Source: a virus. From it: 64,000 nt of DNA. The stretch is from positions 60,541 to 124,540 of IMG/VR virus record IMGVR_UViG_3300043438_002264; one strand, given 5' to 3'. The notes under the pieces were generated by a model. That model was not told the DNA's origin. It was given only the letters and a program-made list of their open reading frames with translations, and searched no databases. Position numbers and translations under genes: made by a program. Numbering within the stretch: the first letter of the stretch is position 1; the number at the start of each line of letters is the position of its first letter. This document shows positions 51,566 through 58,532 of this stretch, piece after piece.

Positions 51566-51587
51566 AGCCTATCACGAGCTACCGACA
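51566..51587 (-). promoter_or_regulatory. TGTCGG-N10-TANNNT promoter (leftward)
   Basis: TGTCGGtagctcgtgaTAGGCT upstream of the 51540 gene. Confidence 0.65.
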
Positions 51588-51665
51588 ATTGTGCCACCTT
51601 TACAAGCCTTTTGACTACAAACTTTTACCTTCTTTTTTGTAGGGTATCTACAACAATAATTAGAG

Positions 51666-51797
51666 TTATCCACAGATTTAGAGTAGTTATCCACAGGTTT
51701 GTTATCAAATCGTTATAATTATTTTTATTTTATCGGCGTGTCGGTTTGACAATTCTAAAAAAATCGGCTAGCCAACTGTGGATAACTTTGTGTATAA
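51666..51797. promoter_or_regulatory. DnaA-box cluster 1
   Basis: TTATCCACA at 51666 and 51687; TGTGGATAA at 51777; TGTGTATAA at 51789. Confidence 0.7.
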
Positions 51798-51893
51798 CTC
51801 TGTTATGATATCGTTATGAAACACCCCGAATTACCTCCCCAAATGTCGGTGGTTTGTGATAGGGTTTTAGTAAGGCAAAAGAAAGGAAACTAA

Positions 51894-52034
51894 ATGGACA
51901 AAATGTGTGTTTACTGCGAGAGTGTTTTTACTTCAGACACTATCGTCTGCCACAACTGTAATGAGTATGATGGTATGATGCCATTGGAACAGGCTATCGA
52001 CTACCTCAACCTTGACCCCAACGACTTTATTTAG
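51894..52034 (+). CDS. Small CxxC-CxxC protein
   Basis: MDKMCVYCESVFTSDTIVCHNCNEYDG...; GAAAGGAA RBS. Confidence 0.6.
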   Translation: MDKMCVYCESVFTSDTIVCHNCNEYDGMMPLEQAIDYLNLDPNDFI

Positions 52035-52041
52035 GAGAAAA

Positions 52042-52137
52042 ATGATAACACTAACATTCGAAACTTGGGAAGAGTTTGACAACGCTATCGCTGGGATAGT
52101 ATCATTGGAAACAGAGCTAACTAAGGAGAGCAAGTAA
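52042..52137 (+). CDS. 31-aa microprotein
   Basis: MITLTFETWEEFDNAIAGIVSLETELTKESK; AGGAG RBS. Confidence 0.6.
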   Translation: MITLTFETWEEFDNAIAGIVSLETELTKESK

Positions 52138-52295
52138 TGACTGAAGAAATGTTTGATGAAATGCTTGATGAGATTTACCCTGTTGTGATAATGGGTGAAC
52201 TAACTTTTTACCCTTCACAAATACTAAAGAATTGCGACCCTATCGCATACAGAATTGCGATGTCAGAAATGGAAGAAGATGAAGATGACAATTGA
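52137..52295 (+). CDS. Small acidic protein
   Basis: MTEEMFDEMLDEIYP...PSQILKNCDPIAYRI; TAATG coupling. Confidence 0.6.
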   Translation: MTEEMFDEMLDEIYPVVIMGELTFYPSQILKNCDPIAYRIAMSEMEEDEDDN

Positions 52296-52381
52296 AGAAT
52301 TAGAAACTTTGATTTATCAAATTGACCTAATGCTGTCAGAGGATACTGCTACACTATTTACAACACCAGAGGAGAAATAAA

Positions 52382-52516
52382 ATGGAACTGTTTTTGATTT
52401 TAGTAGTTGTTGGCGTTTCAGTTTTTGTTGGAACTTCGCTTGCCGCTATTTTGTTTTTGCTACAAGAAAATAACAGACTTGGCGAAGAGTTAGAAAAGAA
52501 CGAGCCACCGTTTTGA
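52382..52516 (+). CDS. Small membrane protein
   Basis: MELFLILVVVGVSVFVGTSLAAILFLL...; GAGGAG RBS. Confidence 0.55.
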   Translation: MELFLILVVVGVSVFVGTSLAAILFLLQENNRLGEELEKNEPPF

Positions 52517-52648
52517 TTTGACAAAACCGCAGAAATGCGGCTAGCCATTTTCTTAGATCGATCTAATGTTTTTTACGAAGAAGTTTAAGAACCCCCCAAA
52601 ATGTCTTAGGGTCGTGGTAAGTTTATCTTATCAACGAAAGGAAACCCT

Positions 52649-55987: not shown

Positions 55988-56158
55988 ATGAAAACTTGGC
56001 AAGTAGAATACAATGCCGCTTATTGGGTAGAAGCAGAGACAGAAGATGAGGCTATTGAATTAGCTATGGAGAAACACGCTGACCTACCAGACGGAGATTG
56101 GGAAGCTATGATTGACCCCTATGATAGCAACAACTTCAATACCCTTGGAGAAAAGTAA
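55988..56158 (+). CDS. Small acidic protein (VEAxxxxEA family)
   Basis: MKTWQVEYNAAYWVEAETEDEAIELA; similar to 58525-58704. Confidence 0.6.
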   Translation: MKTWQVEYNAAYWVEAETEDEAIELAMEKHADLPDGDWEAMIDPYDSNNFNTLGEK

Positions 56159-56277
56159 TGTCAGCGGGTAGCGTTATAATTATTGAGTGCCCAAGGCACG
56201 AAGGCAATTTCGATTGCACACCATTCTGCAACATATGTGAAGGAGAACAGGAGATAAAATGGGCACCAGGAATCTAA
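56158..56277 (+). CDS. Small Cys-rich peptide
   Basis: MSAGSVIIIECPRHEGNFDCTPFCNICEGEQEIKWAPGI. Confidence 0.45.
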   Translation: MSAGSVIIIECPRHEGNFDCTPFCNICEGEQEIKWAPGI

Positions 56278-56762
56278 CAGTAGTAAAGAATTCGCAGGGT
56301 ACTACCAAAATTGCTCAATACGGACAATGGGACGGATACCCAAGCTATTCAGGTATTCAGGTCTTAGAGTTTTTGCGTGATGAGTATAACCAACAGCTGT
56401 TGGAAGCTAAGCTTGATGTTGTAGAGTTTATTACAGACGAAGAGCTTGACACTATCTATGAGCCTTTCAAGACTATGGATTTTGAGAATAAGGAATTCCT
56501 AAACGCCTACCCTGGCCTACACAGAGATACAGGTGTTGACATTTTGAAAGTTGTTGCCAACGCCAAGGGTATTATCAAGACTGTAGACAATTCAGACTTT
56601 AGGAATGATGAACTATTTTGCGAGGGCGTCTATGAAGTAGACTTCCAATCTAAAAAGTTTATCTCTACTTATAACGAAATCATCAAAGAGTTCTTTTTAG
56701 AAAACCTTCCGACTAATGAACACTACCTAACTGCAATGGGTGTGGAGCTGGAAACAGTATAA
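56259..56762 (+). CDS. Conserved phage protein (MGTR...WDGYP family)
   Basis: MGTRNLT...QYGQWDGYPS...YEVDF. Confidence 0.65.
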   Translation: MGTRNLTVVKNSQGTTKIAQYGQWDGYPSYSGIQVLEFLRDEYNQQLLEAKLDVVEFITDEELDTIYEPFKTMDFENKEFLNAYPGLHRDTGVDILKVVANAKGIIKTVDNSDFRNDELFCEGVYEVDFQSKKFISTYNEIIKEFFLENLPTNEHYLTAMGVELETV

Positions 56763-56802
56763 GCATGTTGGCCTAACCTTACTTCCTTTCTGTTAGGTCA
56801 AC

Positions 56803-56830
56803 CGTCCTGGACACGACGTACAAACTGTCC
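56803..56830 (+). ncRNA. Putative H-type pseudoknot, copy 2
   Basis: CGTC-CTGGACA-C-GACG-TACAAA-CTGTCC. Confidence 0.5.
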
Positions 56831-56980
56831 ACTCTTTTGGGCTAGCCCACTTGTGTCTAAATGTCAAGCCCTTTACGATCTGTTTACGATAACCTCGAAT
56901 CTTTTCCCAAATTAGTCTTGACTTTGTCGGTGGGTGGGTGTAAGATAGTCTTATCTAAACACTAAAGAAAGGCAATACAA

Positions 56981-57991
56981 ATGGCACATTTGTTAGAATC
57001 AGTAAACGGAGAAACAGCATTTGCTTCTTTTCGTGAGCCAGCTTGGCACGGATTGGGAACTGTATTCACTGAGGAAGTTTCAACAGCTGAAATGCTAAAG
57101 AAAGCTAAACTAAACAACTGGGATGTTCGCTTGGAAGATGTAGAGATTCCTAACCAGTTTAGTTCCGACAAGAATTATTCTTTTGTCGTTAGAGATAACC
57201 CATTTACCTTGGGCAATAAGGATGTTCTTGGCATTGTCGGTGAGCGTTATGTTCCTCTTCAGAATGAGGAGCTATTTGATTTTGCTGACACACTATTAGA
57301 CAATGGTGGCAGATGGGAAACTGCTGGTTCCATCAAGGGCGGTAGAGTTGTATTTGGCTCACTTGCTCTTGAGCGTGAAACTGTTATTGACCCTAACGGA
57401 GTTGGAGATAAAGTAAACACCTATCTTCTTGTAAACACATCTCACGACGGCTCTATTGCTATTCAGGCAAGCATTACACCTGTCCGAGTTGTATGTGCTA
57501 ACACTCTAAACCTTGCTCTTGGTAATCGTGGGCGTAATGGTTCAGTAAAGCAGTCATTCAAGATTCGCCACACACAGACAGCAGAAGGTAAGATTCAGGT
57601 TGCTCGTGAGGCTCTTGGACTTGCTAACGCATACATTGATGAGTTTAGCCTAATGGCAAACAAGATGATTCAAGCTGAGGTTAGCAAAAAGAAGTTTGAT
57701 GAAATTGTTTTGGCATTGTATCCACAGCCAAAAGAAGAAGCAAAGAACGCCAACAGTCGTTGGGCAAAAAAGATTGACCTTATCAATGACATCTATGTTG
57801 GTGATTTCAACAACACAATTACTGGAACAGCTTGGGGTGTTGCTAATGCCCTAACTGAAAGATTAGACTGGTATAGAACAGGTCGCAAAGGCAAAACAGA
57901 ATCACTTCTTGTTGGTGCCTCTGGTCTTGACCCAGTCATCAATGCTGAGAAGAATAGAATCTTCAAGGCAGTTCAGTTGGCAACAGCCTAA
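56981..57991 (+). CDS. DUF932 / TIGR03299-like phage-plasmid protein
   Basis: PAWHGLG, ETAGSIKGG, NTSHDGS, TPVRVVCANTL and IRHT motifs. Confidence 0.85.
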   Translation: MAHLLESVNGETAFASFREPAWHGLGTVFTEEVSTAEMLKKAKLNNWDVRLEDVEIPNQFSSDKNYSFVVRDNPFTLGNKDVLGIVGERYVPLQNEELFDFADTLLDNGGRWETAGSIKGGRVVFGSLALERETVIDPNGVGDKVNTYLLVNTSHDGSIAIQASITPVRVVCANTLNLALGNRGRNGSVKQSFKIRHTQTAEGKIQVAREALGLANAYIDEFSLMANKMIQAEVSKKKFDEIVLALYPQPKEEAKNANSRWAKKIDLINDIYVGDFNNTITGTAWGVANALTERLDWYRTGRKGKTESLLVGASGLDPVINAEKNRIFKAVQLATA

Positions 57992-57998
57992 CAGCAAA

Positions 57999-58025
57999 AC
58001 ACCTGAGCAAGTGTAAAAACTGCTC
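57999..58025 (+). ncRNA. Putative H-type pseudoknot, copy 3
   Basis: ACAC-CTGAGCA-A-GTGT-AAAAA-CTGCTC. Confidence 0.5.
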
Positions 58026-58145
58026 CCTCTTTTGGGGCTAGCCAACTTTACATAAAATAATTAACACCAAAAAATTCTTTACGAACAATCAAAAAAATCC
58101 CCCGAAATCGTTGACTTTGTCGGTGGGTATCAGTATAATATACCT

Positions 58146-58532
58146 ATGAACGTAAAAACCCTAAACCACATTGAAACTGCAAAAGTCCTTGGTCTCAAGA
58201 AGGGCGTTATTGTTTATCCTCATGCTGTTGTCAATACCCGCAAAGGTTTGGCAACTGTATCCTTTGAAGGTGTTGGATGGTTTGAAGACGAGTGCATGTA
58301 TCCAGTCCTTGTTGGAGACGAATACAACAGCTGGATGGCAAAGCTTACTAAGGAGCAACTGCTAAGCTTAGTAAGAGAAGAACCAGGAATGACCCTGCAT
58401 AAACTAATAGACCCAATCAACGATAGAACACGATCTAATCTGTGGATTTGGGAAAATCAAATCAAAGACTTTGACCAAAATGTCGTAGGGTCAGAGTATA
58501 ATGAACTGAAAAGAGAGGAAGCCCATGCCTGA
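58146..58532 (+). CDS. Hypothetical protein (leaderless)
   Basis: ATG 6 nt after TATAAT. Confidence 0.6.
   Translation: MNVKTLNHIETAKVLGLKKGVIVYPHAVVNTRKGLATVSFEGVGWFEDECMYPVLVGDEYNSWMAKLTKEQLLSLVREEPGMTLHKLIDPINDRTRSNLWIWENQIKDFDQNVVGSEYNELKREEAHA

What the first reader, a model, noticed from the sequence alone, without database searches (positions are those of the whole stretch)
51566..58502. Early-region promoters match the host PafBC / RecA-independent DNA-damage promoter
Seen: twelve sites share the geometry TGTC-N12-TANNNT: 51566-51587 (minus), 51844, 52602, 53251, 54369, 54687, 55379, 55947, 56159, 56925, 58118 and 58481. Seven have exact TGTCGG; the others are TGTCGT (x2), TGTCAG, TGTCTG and TGTCTT. 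Each lies upstream of small genes, and two are followed 6 nt later by a leaderless ATG (53279, 58146). Established: TGTCGG-N10-TANNNT is the RecA-NDp motif of Mycobacterium. The WYL-domain activator PafBC reads it as a -26 element and redirects the housekeeping sigma factor when activated by single-stranded nucleic acid. Inference: the phage has placed its early/host-takeover cassettes under the host's nucleic-acid-sensing damage response, or under a phage-encoded PafBC-like activator located outside this window. I am not aware of this being described as a phage early-transcription strategy.
Basis: partly seen in the sequence, partly recalled or inferred. Interest (0 to 1): 0.93.

Follow-up and report, generated by a model that had tools for sequence, protein, structure and literature searches.

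The report
Lake phage promoters copying PafBC boxes
An uncultured lake phage of actinobacteria starts a block of small unknown genes from fifteen promoters built like the recA promoters of its likely hosts, which the DNA-damage activator PafBC switches on, so it may borrow that host alarm switch; nothing has been tested at the bench.

Summary
There are 15 sites, not 12: 14 on the + strand and 1 on the - strand, between 51566 and 58502. All share aaTGTC-N12-TAnnnT. The block has 16 pattern hits against 1.04±1.0 in shuffles. A matrix built only from relatives ranks these 15 as the best hits in the 116-kb unique genome. Each is followed by a ribosome-binding site and ORF, or by a leaderless ATG.

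The geometry equals the published PafBC motif tGTCgg(N10)tA(N3)T. The bases not used in the search (AA before TGTC, then R-G-W-G-S) also match the recA promoters of 33 of 35 Microbacteriaceae genomes.

The host is not Mycobacterium. The likely hosts are Aquiluna/Rhodoluna-like lake actinobacteria, which carry a pafB-pafC pair. The phage has no WYL protein, sigma factor or PafB/C-like gene.

One point argues against strict PafBC dependence. Each of the 14 scored promoters also has TGn, a good -35 hexamer or a perfect TATAAT.

Reading by PafBC is inferred, not shown. "Early" timing is also unproven. This scan has made the same finding before on other DNA: 60 notes in at least 57 genomes.

The parts
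51566..51587 (-). PafBC-type promoter (TGTCGGTAGC..TGaTAGGCT) driving the leftward 63-aa Cys-rich ORF 51540-51349
   Evidence: (score 22.0)
51844..51865 (+). PafBC-type promoter with TGn, ahead of the 46-aa ORF at 51894
   Evidence: 7 of 7 free positions; 29.9
52334..52355 (+).
   Evidence: (18.4)
52602..52623 (+). PafBC-type promoter ahead of the DUF7178 gene 52649-53167
   Evidence: (25.1)
53251..53272 (+). PafBC-type promoter; leaderless ATG at 53279
   Evidence: (33.9)
53517..53538 (+).
   Evidence: (21.6)
53826..53847 (+).
   Evidence: (22.1)
54369..54390 (+). PafBC-type promoter (TGTCGGTGGGTAaTGcTACAAT)
   Evidence: 7 of 7; 33.0
54687..54708 (+). PafBC-type promoter with TATAAT and a 5 of 6 -35 hexamer, ahead of the 147-aa ORF at 54745
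   Evidence: (22.0)
55379..55400 (+). PafBC-type promoter with a 5 of 6 -35 hexamer, ahead of the 66-aa ORF at 55426
   Evidence: (27.2)
55947..55968 (+). PafBC-type promoter with TGn, ahead of the 56-aa ORF at 55988
   Evidence: (30.7)
56159..56180 (+). PafBC-type promoter with TATAAT, ahead of the 167-aa ORF at 56259
   Evidence: (20.8)
56925..56946 (+). Hybrid promoter (TTGACT -35 plus TGTC box) of the DUF932 gene 56981-57991. The strict pattern is kept at the same place in 26 of 47 related loci.
   Evidence: (18.6)
58118..58139 (+). Hybrid promoter (TTGACT-17-TATAAT plus TGTC box); leaderless ATG at 58146
   Evidence: (18.3)
58481..58502 (+). PafBC-type promoter with TATAAT, ahead of the 59-aa ORF at 58525
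   Evidence: (21.5)
51894..58704 (+). Block of about 18 small genes, mostly of unknown family (DUF7178 and DUF932 are the only matches), served by the 14 rightward promoters
51803..58106 (+). Six copies of a second element, TTACGA-N16-CCCRAA, lying 1-13 nt upstream of six of the promoters (starts 51803, 52573, 53222, 54331, 56884, 58079). Function unknown.

Best explanation
The 15 sites are real promoters of the PafBC (RecA-NDp) class.

Each has a -10 hexamer read by the host housekeeping sigma factor. In place of a -35 hexamer, most have a box aaTGTCrGwGG at about -28 to -20.

The most likely mechanism is that the host PafBC heterodimer binds the GTC box and bridges it to sigma region 4 ("sigma adaptation"). 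PafBC is present all the time but is activated by single-stranded DNA. On this reading, the block of small genes fires when single-stranded DNA appears in the infected cell.

The phage versions are strengthened copies. Each of the 14 rightward promoters scored adds TGn, a near-consensus -35 or a perfect TATAAT, so they probably also have basal activity without PafBC.

Shown: the sequence architecture, its restriction to this block, its conservation in relatives, its identity with host recA promoters, and pafBC in the likely hosts.

Inferred: that PafBC binds these sites, the timing of expression, and the identity of the host.
For: Geometry:
- It is identical to the ChIP-derived PafBC motif tGTCgg(N10)tA(N3)T. 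In that motif the GTC triplet is read by PafB R46/R50 at -23 to -28 (passages of PMC8635444).

Location and gene context:
- A matrix built from 393 sites of relatives only ranks the 15 sites as the top 15 of the 116-kb unique genome. Their scores are 18.3 or more; the next best is 15.4.
- All 15 are followed by an ORF. Either a Shine-Dalgarno sequence and ORF lie 13-72 nt after the predicted start, or an ATG sits at the predicted start.

Match to host recA promoters at bases not used in the search:
- In 422 distinct sites from this phage and 41 related loci, the free positions are A 85% and A 82% before TGTC, then R 64%, G 75%, W 92%, G/C 83% and G/C 94%. There is no -35 signal; information content is 0.2 bits or less.
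- Upstream of recA, 33 of 35 Microbacteriaceae genomes have exactly one TGTC-N12-TANNNT. Its free positions are the same: A 21/33, A 25/33, R 29/33, G 31/33, W 29/33, G 30/33, G/C 31/33.
- Block sites match 5.6 of 7 of these positions; non-block pattern hits match 2.2 of 7.

Likely hosts:
- The phage NrdF is 80-84% identical to that of Aquiluna, Rhodoluna and other Microbacteriaceae, including complete chromosomes.
- The phage encodes WhiB.
- The DNA is held by lake-water runs.
- All 5 candidate host genomes examined have two adjacent WYL genes.
- In G001, one has HTH_PafC+WYL+WCX. The other aligns to the PafB chains 7p5x_AY and 6sj9_A with R50 kept and R46 as K. TatC and a DEAD/DSHCT helicase lie next door.

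Motif in the G001 chromosome:
- In G001 the pattern is rare: 58 hits against 73 for the reversed control.
- 6 of the 10 best phage-matrix hits there were scored intergenic by my rough ORF calls, where 8% of the genome is.
- I looked at the genes behind some of these and some lower-ranked hits. They include a LysM protein, a PD-(D/E)XK nuclease-helicase, recA and an AddA/UvrD-like helicase.

Nothing phage-encoded to replace PafBC:
- The phage has no WYL domain and no sigma region 2.
- It has nothing like host PafB/C; the best tblastn E-value is 0.05.
Against: - There is no expression or binding data of any kind. No RNA holder was listed, and the one "RNA?" run consists of contigs of relatives.
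- Each of the 14 rightward promoters scored carries a sigma-A helper: TGn in 8, a 5 of 6 -35 in 4, TATAAT alone in 2; the leftward site, not scored there, also has TGn. Host recA promoters rarely have TG there (T 5/33, G 2/33). The phage promoters may therefore work without PafBC.
- In the family, 90 of 422 sites have a -35 of 5 of 6 or better. The orthologous DUF932 promoter usually keeps TTGACA next to the TGTC box.
- In G001, the phage-matrix scores do not exceed those of shuffled genomes (top 16.5 against up to 17.7). recA ranks only 9th and the AddA-like gene 21st.
- The host is inferred from gene similarity, not from infection.
- In the nearest cultured relative, Streptomyces phage Coruscant, the 11 TGTAAGCT promoters keep a -35. 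Five have TGTC at the same spot, but their free positions do not fit the PafBC consensus.
- The bases after TGTC differ by phage lineage (GGTGG, TGACCCC, CCATA). This would also fit a phage-encoded reader.
- A second conserved element, TTACGA-N16-CCCRAA, sits just upstream of six promoters and is unexplained.
Confidence: 0.55

Rival explanations
1. The promoters are read by host RNA polymerase with the housekeeping sigma factor alone. Extended -10 (TGn), occasional -35 hexamers and strong -10 boxes would suffice. The TGTC box would then be a binding site for something else, such as a phage repressor or a timing factor, or a spacer feature inherited by promoter duplication.
For: - Each of the 14 rightward promoters scored has TGn, a -35 of 5 of 6 or better, or TATAAT.
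- 245 of 422 family sites have TGn.
- Coruscant's early-region promoters are clearly of -35/extended -10 type, and 5 of 11 have TGTC at the same place.
- The orthologous DUF932 promoter keeps TTGACA in many relatives.
Against: - This does not explain why TGTC and its flanks (AA, R, G, W, G, S) are kept at a fixed distance from the -10 in 422 sites.
- It does not explain why the same flanks occur at recA in 33 of 35 host-family genomes.
- About 79% of family sites lack a good -35.
- Spread by duplication would not keep the box while the spacer diverges at orthologous promoters.
Confidence: 0.2
2. A phage-encoded activator of unknown family reads the TGTC box and recruits or remodels the sigma factor, as MotA/AsiA do at T4 middle promoters. 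The genes would then be middle genes, not early ones.
For: - The layout is the same as T4 middle promoters: a box near -30 plus a -10, with no -35 (comparison made in PMC8635444).
- The bases after TGTC vary by lineage, which could track a phage protein.
- The genome has many small ORFs of no known family.
- Perfect TTGACA-17-TATAAT promoters exist elsewhere in the genome and could be the true early ones.
Against: - The record is rated 100% complete and direct-terminal-repeat bounded, and it has no WYL domain, no sigma region 2 and no PafB/C-like sequence.
- A phage protein would have had to converge on the exact specificity of the host recA promoter box.
- The lineage variants all stay inside the range seen among host recA promoters: TGTCGGTGG, TGTCTGAG, TGTCCGAGG, TGTCTTAG.
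Confidence: 0.15
3. The boxes act mainly as decoys. They would soak up PafBC and blunt the host DNA-damage or defence response, rather than drive transcription.
For: - There are 15 boxes per genome, multiplied by replication.
- A paper cited in PMC12848934 is said there to link PafBC to phage resistance. I could not read that paper.
Against: Every box sits at the exact promoter distance from a -10 hexamer and ahead of a gene on the right strand. A pure decoy would not need this.
Confidence: 0.05

Closest known systems
PafBC-dependent (RecA-NDp, recA P1-type) promoters of Mycobacterium and other Actinobacteria, read by sigma adaptation (PMC8635444, PMC11804915, PMC6789036)
   Same: - The 22-nt layout tGTCgg-N10-tAnnnT.
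- A GTC triplet at about -26.
- A sigma-A -10, and mostly no -35.
- The same flanking bases as recA promoters of the likely host family.
   Different: - They lie on a virulent-looking phage genome, 15 in 7 kb, ahead of small unknown genes instead of repair genes.
- They are strengthened with TGn, a -35 or TATAAT.
- Binding by PafBC has not been tested.
T4 middle promoters read through MotA/AsiA (sigma appropriation)
   Same: A box near -30 replaces the -35 while the -10 is kept. It is a phage regulon (comparison drawn in PMC8635444).
   Different: In T4 the adaptor proteins are phage-encoded and remodel sigma region 4. Here no phage adaptor was found, and the box equals a host promoter box.
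Dense early or host-takeover promoter clusters of large virulent phages with long terminal repeats (SPO1, T5; recalled, not checked here)
   Same: Many closely spaced strong promoters, each serving one to three small genes of unknown function, partly inside a terminal repeat.
   Different: As I recall, those use ordinary -35/-10 promoters of the host housekeeping sigma factor. Here the -35 is mostly replaced by the TGTC box.
Early-region promoters of Streptomyces phage Coruscant (BE cluster, Stanwilliamsviridae), the nearest cultured relatives (portal 47% identical)
   Same: A block of small genes with one promoter each. TGTC is at the same distance from the -10 in 5 of 11 promoters.
   Different: Coruscant keeps a -35 (TTGCAT/TTGAC) and a fixed TGTAAGCT. 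The flanks of its TGTC do not fit the PafBC consensus.
SOS-coupled prophage induction (LexA/RecA-dependent repressor cleavage)
   Same: A phage ties its gene expression to the host's sensing of single-stranded DNA.
   Different: - That system works through the RecA filament and repressor cleavage in temperate phages.
- Here there is no LexA-box enrichment: 1 GAAC-N4-GTTC against 0.66 expected, and none in the block.
- The proposed link is a transcription activator.

Membership tests
PafBC-dependent (RecA-NDp) promoter | GTC triplet 13 nt upstream of a TAnnnT -10 hexamer (tGTCgg-N10-tAnnnT) | tested here: met
   15 of 15 sites. Motif definition taken from passages of PMC8635444.
PafBC-dependent (RecA-NDp) promoter | No -35 consensus | tested here: inconclusive
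   The family logo shows no -35 signal. However, 4 of the 14 rightward sites here and 90 of 422 family sites have a hexamer of 5 of 6 or better.
PafBC-dependent (RecA-NDp) promoter | Flanking bases as in the hosts' own PafBC-type promoters (recA) | tested here: met
   AA / R-G-W-G-S is shared by 422 phage-family sites and 33 recA promoters of Microbacteriaceae. Block sites match 5.6 of 7.
PafBC-dependent (RecA-NDp) promoter | The host encodes PafB and PafC | tested here: met
   All 5 candidate host genomes have an adjacent WYL pair. HTH_PafC+WYL+WCX, the alignment to PafB chains and the TatC/helicase neighbours were seen in G001. The host itself is inferred.
PafBC-dependent (RecA-NDp) promoter | PafBC occupies the site and is needed for activity; induction by DNA damage or single-stranded DNA | not testable with these tools
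   Needs ChIP, a pull-down, or reporters in wild type against a pafBC deletion.
Phage-encoded WYL / PafBC-like activator | A WYL domain or PafB/C-like HTH protein in the phage genome | tested here: not met
   No PF13280 match at E<=10 in the complete record. tblastn with the host PafB/C gave a best E-value of 0.05, outside the HTH.
Phage-encoded sigma factor regulon | A sigma-70 family gene in the phage | tested here: not met
   No Sigma70_r2 match. One Sigma70_r4_2 match at 13.8 bits in a 51-aa frame, below the cut-off.
LexA (SOS) regulated promoters | GAAC-N4-GTTC box at the promoters | tested here: not met
   1 match in the window against 0.66 expected; none in the block.

The most novel reading that the evidence does not exclude
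A whole clade of abundant lake actinophages may have rebuilt its block of small genes as a viral PafBC regulon. The clade is at least the 41 related loci with about 37-46% G+C. On this reading the phage uses the host's constitutively present sensor of single-stranded DNA as its own switch. Single-stranded DNA made by injection, by phage replication or by a host nuclease attack on the phage DNA would then turn on these genes. It would be the first case of a virus wiring itself into sigma adaptation without encoding any adaptor of its own.
Probability: 0.4. Interest if true: 0.85.

Novelty: new variant of a known kind. Interest (0 to 1): 0.7.

Why it matters
PafBC and sigma adaptation are known only as a host DNA-damage response. 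If a common family of lake phages runs a gene block through it, three things would follow.
- It would be a new way for a virus to time its genes using a host alarm, with no phage-encoded transcription factor.
- Infection itself would be shown to activate PafBC.
- It would offer 15 natural promoter variants per genome, and more than 400 in the family, to dissect what PafBC reads.

It would also show that PafBC-type promoters can be combined with TGn or -35 elements, which bears on how strictly sigma adaptation excludes normal recognition.

This is a repeat of a pattern the scan has already noted in at least 57 other genomes. This window adds a further case and some controls, not a first sighting.

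Tried and rejected
- **Nearby phage DNA.** Megablast of 51000-59000 against GenBank phages found no match.
- **Expression.** No RNA holder was listed for the stretch. The one run marked "RNA? (probably DNA)" gave only contigs of relatives over parts of the block. 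Contigs cannot show starts, so nothing can be said about expression.
- **Host regulon.** The phage matrix did not give scores above shuffled controls in G001. Only the intergenic enrichment of its best hits, and the genes behind the hits I looked at, are used. NCBIfam gave no name to the two WYL proteins; Pfam did.
- **Weak host hits.** Sites before dnaX, ftsH, clpX and pgl are probably chance.
- **SigF/SigB-type reading of GGGTA.** Rejected, because GGGTA is not kept in other lineages.
- **Coruscant as a cultured model of the same class.** Not supported.
- **Distant relatives.** L045-L050 lack the class.
- **Literature.**
  - The paper by Rafique et al. 2025 on pafBC and mycobacteriophage resistance is not held. 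I know it only from its citation in PMC12848934.
  - Supplementary files were not opened. The PafBC regulon lists in supplements could bear on the comparison of target genes.
  - The statements that Rv2719c-like LysM genes and adnAB belong to the mycobacterial RecA-independent regulon, and that pafBC-tatAC-helY is the mycobacterial gene order, are recalled and come from no call.

Full report
**What the window is**

The window is the right half of a 124,540-bp IMG/VR virus record (G000), with 38.5% G+C. The record is classed as bounded by direct terminal repeats and 100% complete. Its last 8,517 bases repeat its first 8,517 without a mismatch. The repeat starts at window 55484, inside a 66-aa ORF, so it may be an assembly overlap rather than a physical end.

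The portal protein is 47% identical to those of Streptomyces BE-cluster phages such as LukeCage and Coruscant. Megablast of the block found no match in GenBank phages. The phage encodes a portal, prohead protease and capsid protein. It also encodes RecA, a DnaE-type polymerase, class Ib ribonucleotide reductase and primase, and a WhiB-like protein above the Pfam cut-off. Most genes run leftward. A block of small genes from about 51.9 to 60.8 kb runs rightward.

**The observation**

The hexamer counts (7 TGTCGG and so on) and the two ATGs 6 nt after the -10 are correct.

The pattern TGTC-N12-TANNNT occurs 29 times in the window, against 10.1±3.5 in shuffles. It occurs 16 times in 51500-58600, against 1.04±1.0 in 500 dinucleotide shuffles, maximum 5.

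Three sites were missed: 52334, 53517 and 53826. One of the 16 hits (53781, - strand) looks like chance.

A repeat search that assumed no motif found the same families centred on AATGTCGGTGGGTA (D3, D8, D15, D17, D18).

A weight matrix built from 393 sites of relatives only, so independent of this genome, gives the 15 sites as the 15 best hits on both strands of the 116-kb unique genome. Their scores are 18.3-33.9. The next best is 15.4, and shuffled genomes give 0-9 hits at 12 or more, against 19 observed.

Each site is followed by an ORF. In 13 cases a Shine-Dalgarno sequence and an ORF lie 13-72 nt after the predicted start. In the other two, an ATG sits exactly at the predicted start. I take these to be real promoters.

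**Relatives**

The DUF932 protein of the block found 47 related IMG/VR loci. In L004-L044 (37-46% G+C) the pattern is very frequent and almost always on the gene strand, with up to 30 + strand copies in about 14 kb. L045-L050 (47-50% G+C) lack it and repeat other words.

Over 422 distinct sites, the positions not fixed by the search are:
- A (85%) and A (82%) just before TGTC.
- Then R (64%), G (75%), W (92%), G/C (83%) and G/C (94%).
- TG at -15/-14 in 58%.
- An A 7 nt after the -10 in 74%.
- No -35 signal.

The bases after TGTC differ by lineage: GGTGG here, TGACCCC, CCATA or TGAGGG elsewhere.

At the orthologous promoter of the DUF932 gene, the strict pattern is kept in 26 of 47 loci. Several more have the box with GATAAT or CATAAT as the -10. 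Most of these keep a TTGACA next to the box.

**Comparison with the known motif**

PMC8635444 (passages read) gives the in vivo PafBC motif as tGTCgg(N10)tA(N3)T. The 3' part is the SigA -10. The 5' part lies at -23 to -28. The GTC triplet is read by PafB R46 and R50 and is strictly conserved across actinobacteria. No -35 is present. The phage sites have exactly this layout.

PMC11804915 (abstract in the search listing) states that single-stranded DNA binding activates PafBC.

**Likely hosts**

The phage NrdF is 80-84% identical to NrdF of Aquiluna, Rhodoluna and other Microbacteriaceae. These include complete or near-complete chromosomes of 1.2-1.4 Mb. Together with the WhiB gene and lake-water runs that hold the DNA, this points to small freshwater actinobacteria, not Mycobacterium. 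This is an inference from gene similarity.

All 5 such genomes have two adjacent WYL genes of about 320 aa. In G001:
- One gene has HTH_PafC, WYL and WCX domains; the other has WYL.
- The upstream one aligns to the PafB chains of 6sj9 and 7p5x. The residue at R50 is kept and R46 is replaced by K.
- TatC and a DEAD/DSHCT helicase follow. As I recall, this is the mycobacterial gene order.

**Host promoters**

Upstream of recA, 33 of 35 Microbacteriaceae genomes have exactly one TGTC-N12-TANNNT. The 35 are the 5 candidates plus the 30 best-scoring of 61 sampled from the family. Its free positions are A 21/33, A 25/33, R 29/33, G 31/33, W 29/33, G 30/33 and G/C 31/33.

This is the consensus of the phage sites, at bases that neither search fixed. 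In this phage the 16 block hits match 5.6 of these 7 positions on average. The 23 pattern hits elsewhere in the genome match 2.2.

I fetched the whole G001 chromosome. The pattern is rare there: 58 hits against 73 for the reversed control. Of the 10 best phage-matrix hits, 6 were scored intergenic by my rough ORF calls, where 8% of the genome is. I looked at the genes behind some of these and some lower-ranked hits. They include a LysM protein, a 1179-aa PD-(D/E)XK nuclease-helicase, recA (rank 9) and an AddA/UvrD-like helicase (rank 21). The scores themselves do not exceed shuffled controls, so this part is supportive but weak.

**What the phage lacks**

The complete record has:
- No WYL domain.
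- No sigma region 2.
- Only a sub-threshold region-4-like match in a 51-aa frame.
- Nothing similar to the host PafB/C.
- No excess of LexA boxes.

**Points against strict PafBC dependence**

All 14 rightward promoters have a helper for direct sigma-A binding:
- TGn with a weak -10 in 8.
- A -35 of 5 of 6 in 4.
- A perfect TATAAT in 2.
The leftward promoter also has TGn.

Host recA promoters rarely have TG there. In Coruscant the 11 promoters of the corresponding block keep a -35 and TGTAAGCT. Five have TGTC at the same place, but with flanks that do not fit.

A second element, TTACGA-N16-CCCRAA, has 12 copies against 0.31 expected, all on the + strand. It lies 1-13 nt upstream of six promoters and forms an array of five in the non-coding stretch 60864-61311. 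Its role is unknown. It may add a phage-specific layer of control.

No RNA data could be had.

**Verdict**

The sites are real promoters (about 0.95). They belong by sequence to the PafBC class of the likely hosts. The best explanation is that host PafBC reads them (0.55), probably on top of some basal activity. The rivals are reading by sigma-A alone with another role for the box (0.2), a phage-encoded adaptor (0.15) and a decoy role (0.05).

I found no paper that describes phage promoters of this class. The searches were "RecA-NDp"+"phage" (5 papers), "PafBC"+"bacteriophage" (27, 20 listed), "pafBC"+"mycobacteriophage" (12, 10 listed) and "Rhodoluna"+"phage"+"promoter" (0). I judged these from listings and abstracts only.

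The scan itself has made the same finding on other DNA: 60 notes in at least 57 genomes, with follow-ups reaching the same reading. Those are unchecked AI notes and I do not count them as evidence.

Noticed in passing
window 51803-58106 and 60864-61311: A bipartite element TTACGA-N16-CCCRAA with fixed spacing has 12 copies (up to 1 mismatch) against 0.31 expected, all on the + strand. Six lie just upstream of TGTC promoters. Five form an array in a non-coding stretch. It may be an iteron or operator for an unknown phage protein.
   Followed up: partly
window 51666-51797 and 61507-61567: Exact DnaA-box 9-mers (TTATCCACA) occur only in two non-coding regions. Three lie between the divergent promoters at 51.6-51.8 kb and two lie at 61.5 kb, each with one-mismatch copies beside them. 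These are possible origin-like regions. With one mismatch allowed, the window-wide count is not above chance (24 against 20).
   Followed up: partly
window 55484-64000 (= genome 1-8517): The exact 8,517-bp terminal repeat begins inside the 66-aa ORF 55426-55626. It may therefore be an assembly overlap of a circularly permuted or concatemeric genome rather than a true end.
   Followed up: partly
window 62342-62399 and 63604-63661 (- strand): Two copies of a 58-nt repeat each carry a perfect TTGACA-17-TATAAT promoter. They face leftward genes near a 252-aa ORF (62411-63169).
   Followed up: no
genome 25080-25412 and 40849-59467 (left of the window; L002, L003): The phage encodes its own WhiB-like protein, RecA, DnaE-type Pol III alpha, class Ib ribonucleotide reductase (NrdE/F) and primase. 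The NrdF is 80-84% identical to that of Aquiluna/Rhodoluna.
   Followed up: partly
window 51560-58526: Contigs from lake-water runs skip or replace whole stretches between promoters (for example 53191-54441 and 56156-58526). This suggests that gene cassettes are swapped among strains at the intergenic modules.
   Followed up: no
window 53175-53197, 54275-54297, 58021-58043: A repeated hairpin-like unit ending in GGCTAGCC lies downstream of genes and upstream of the next promoter module. It was also noted by another first-reader finding.
   Followed up: no
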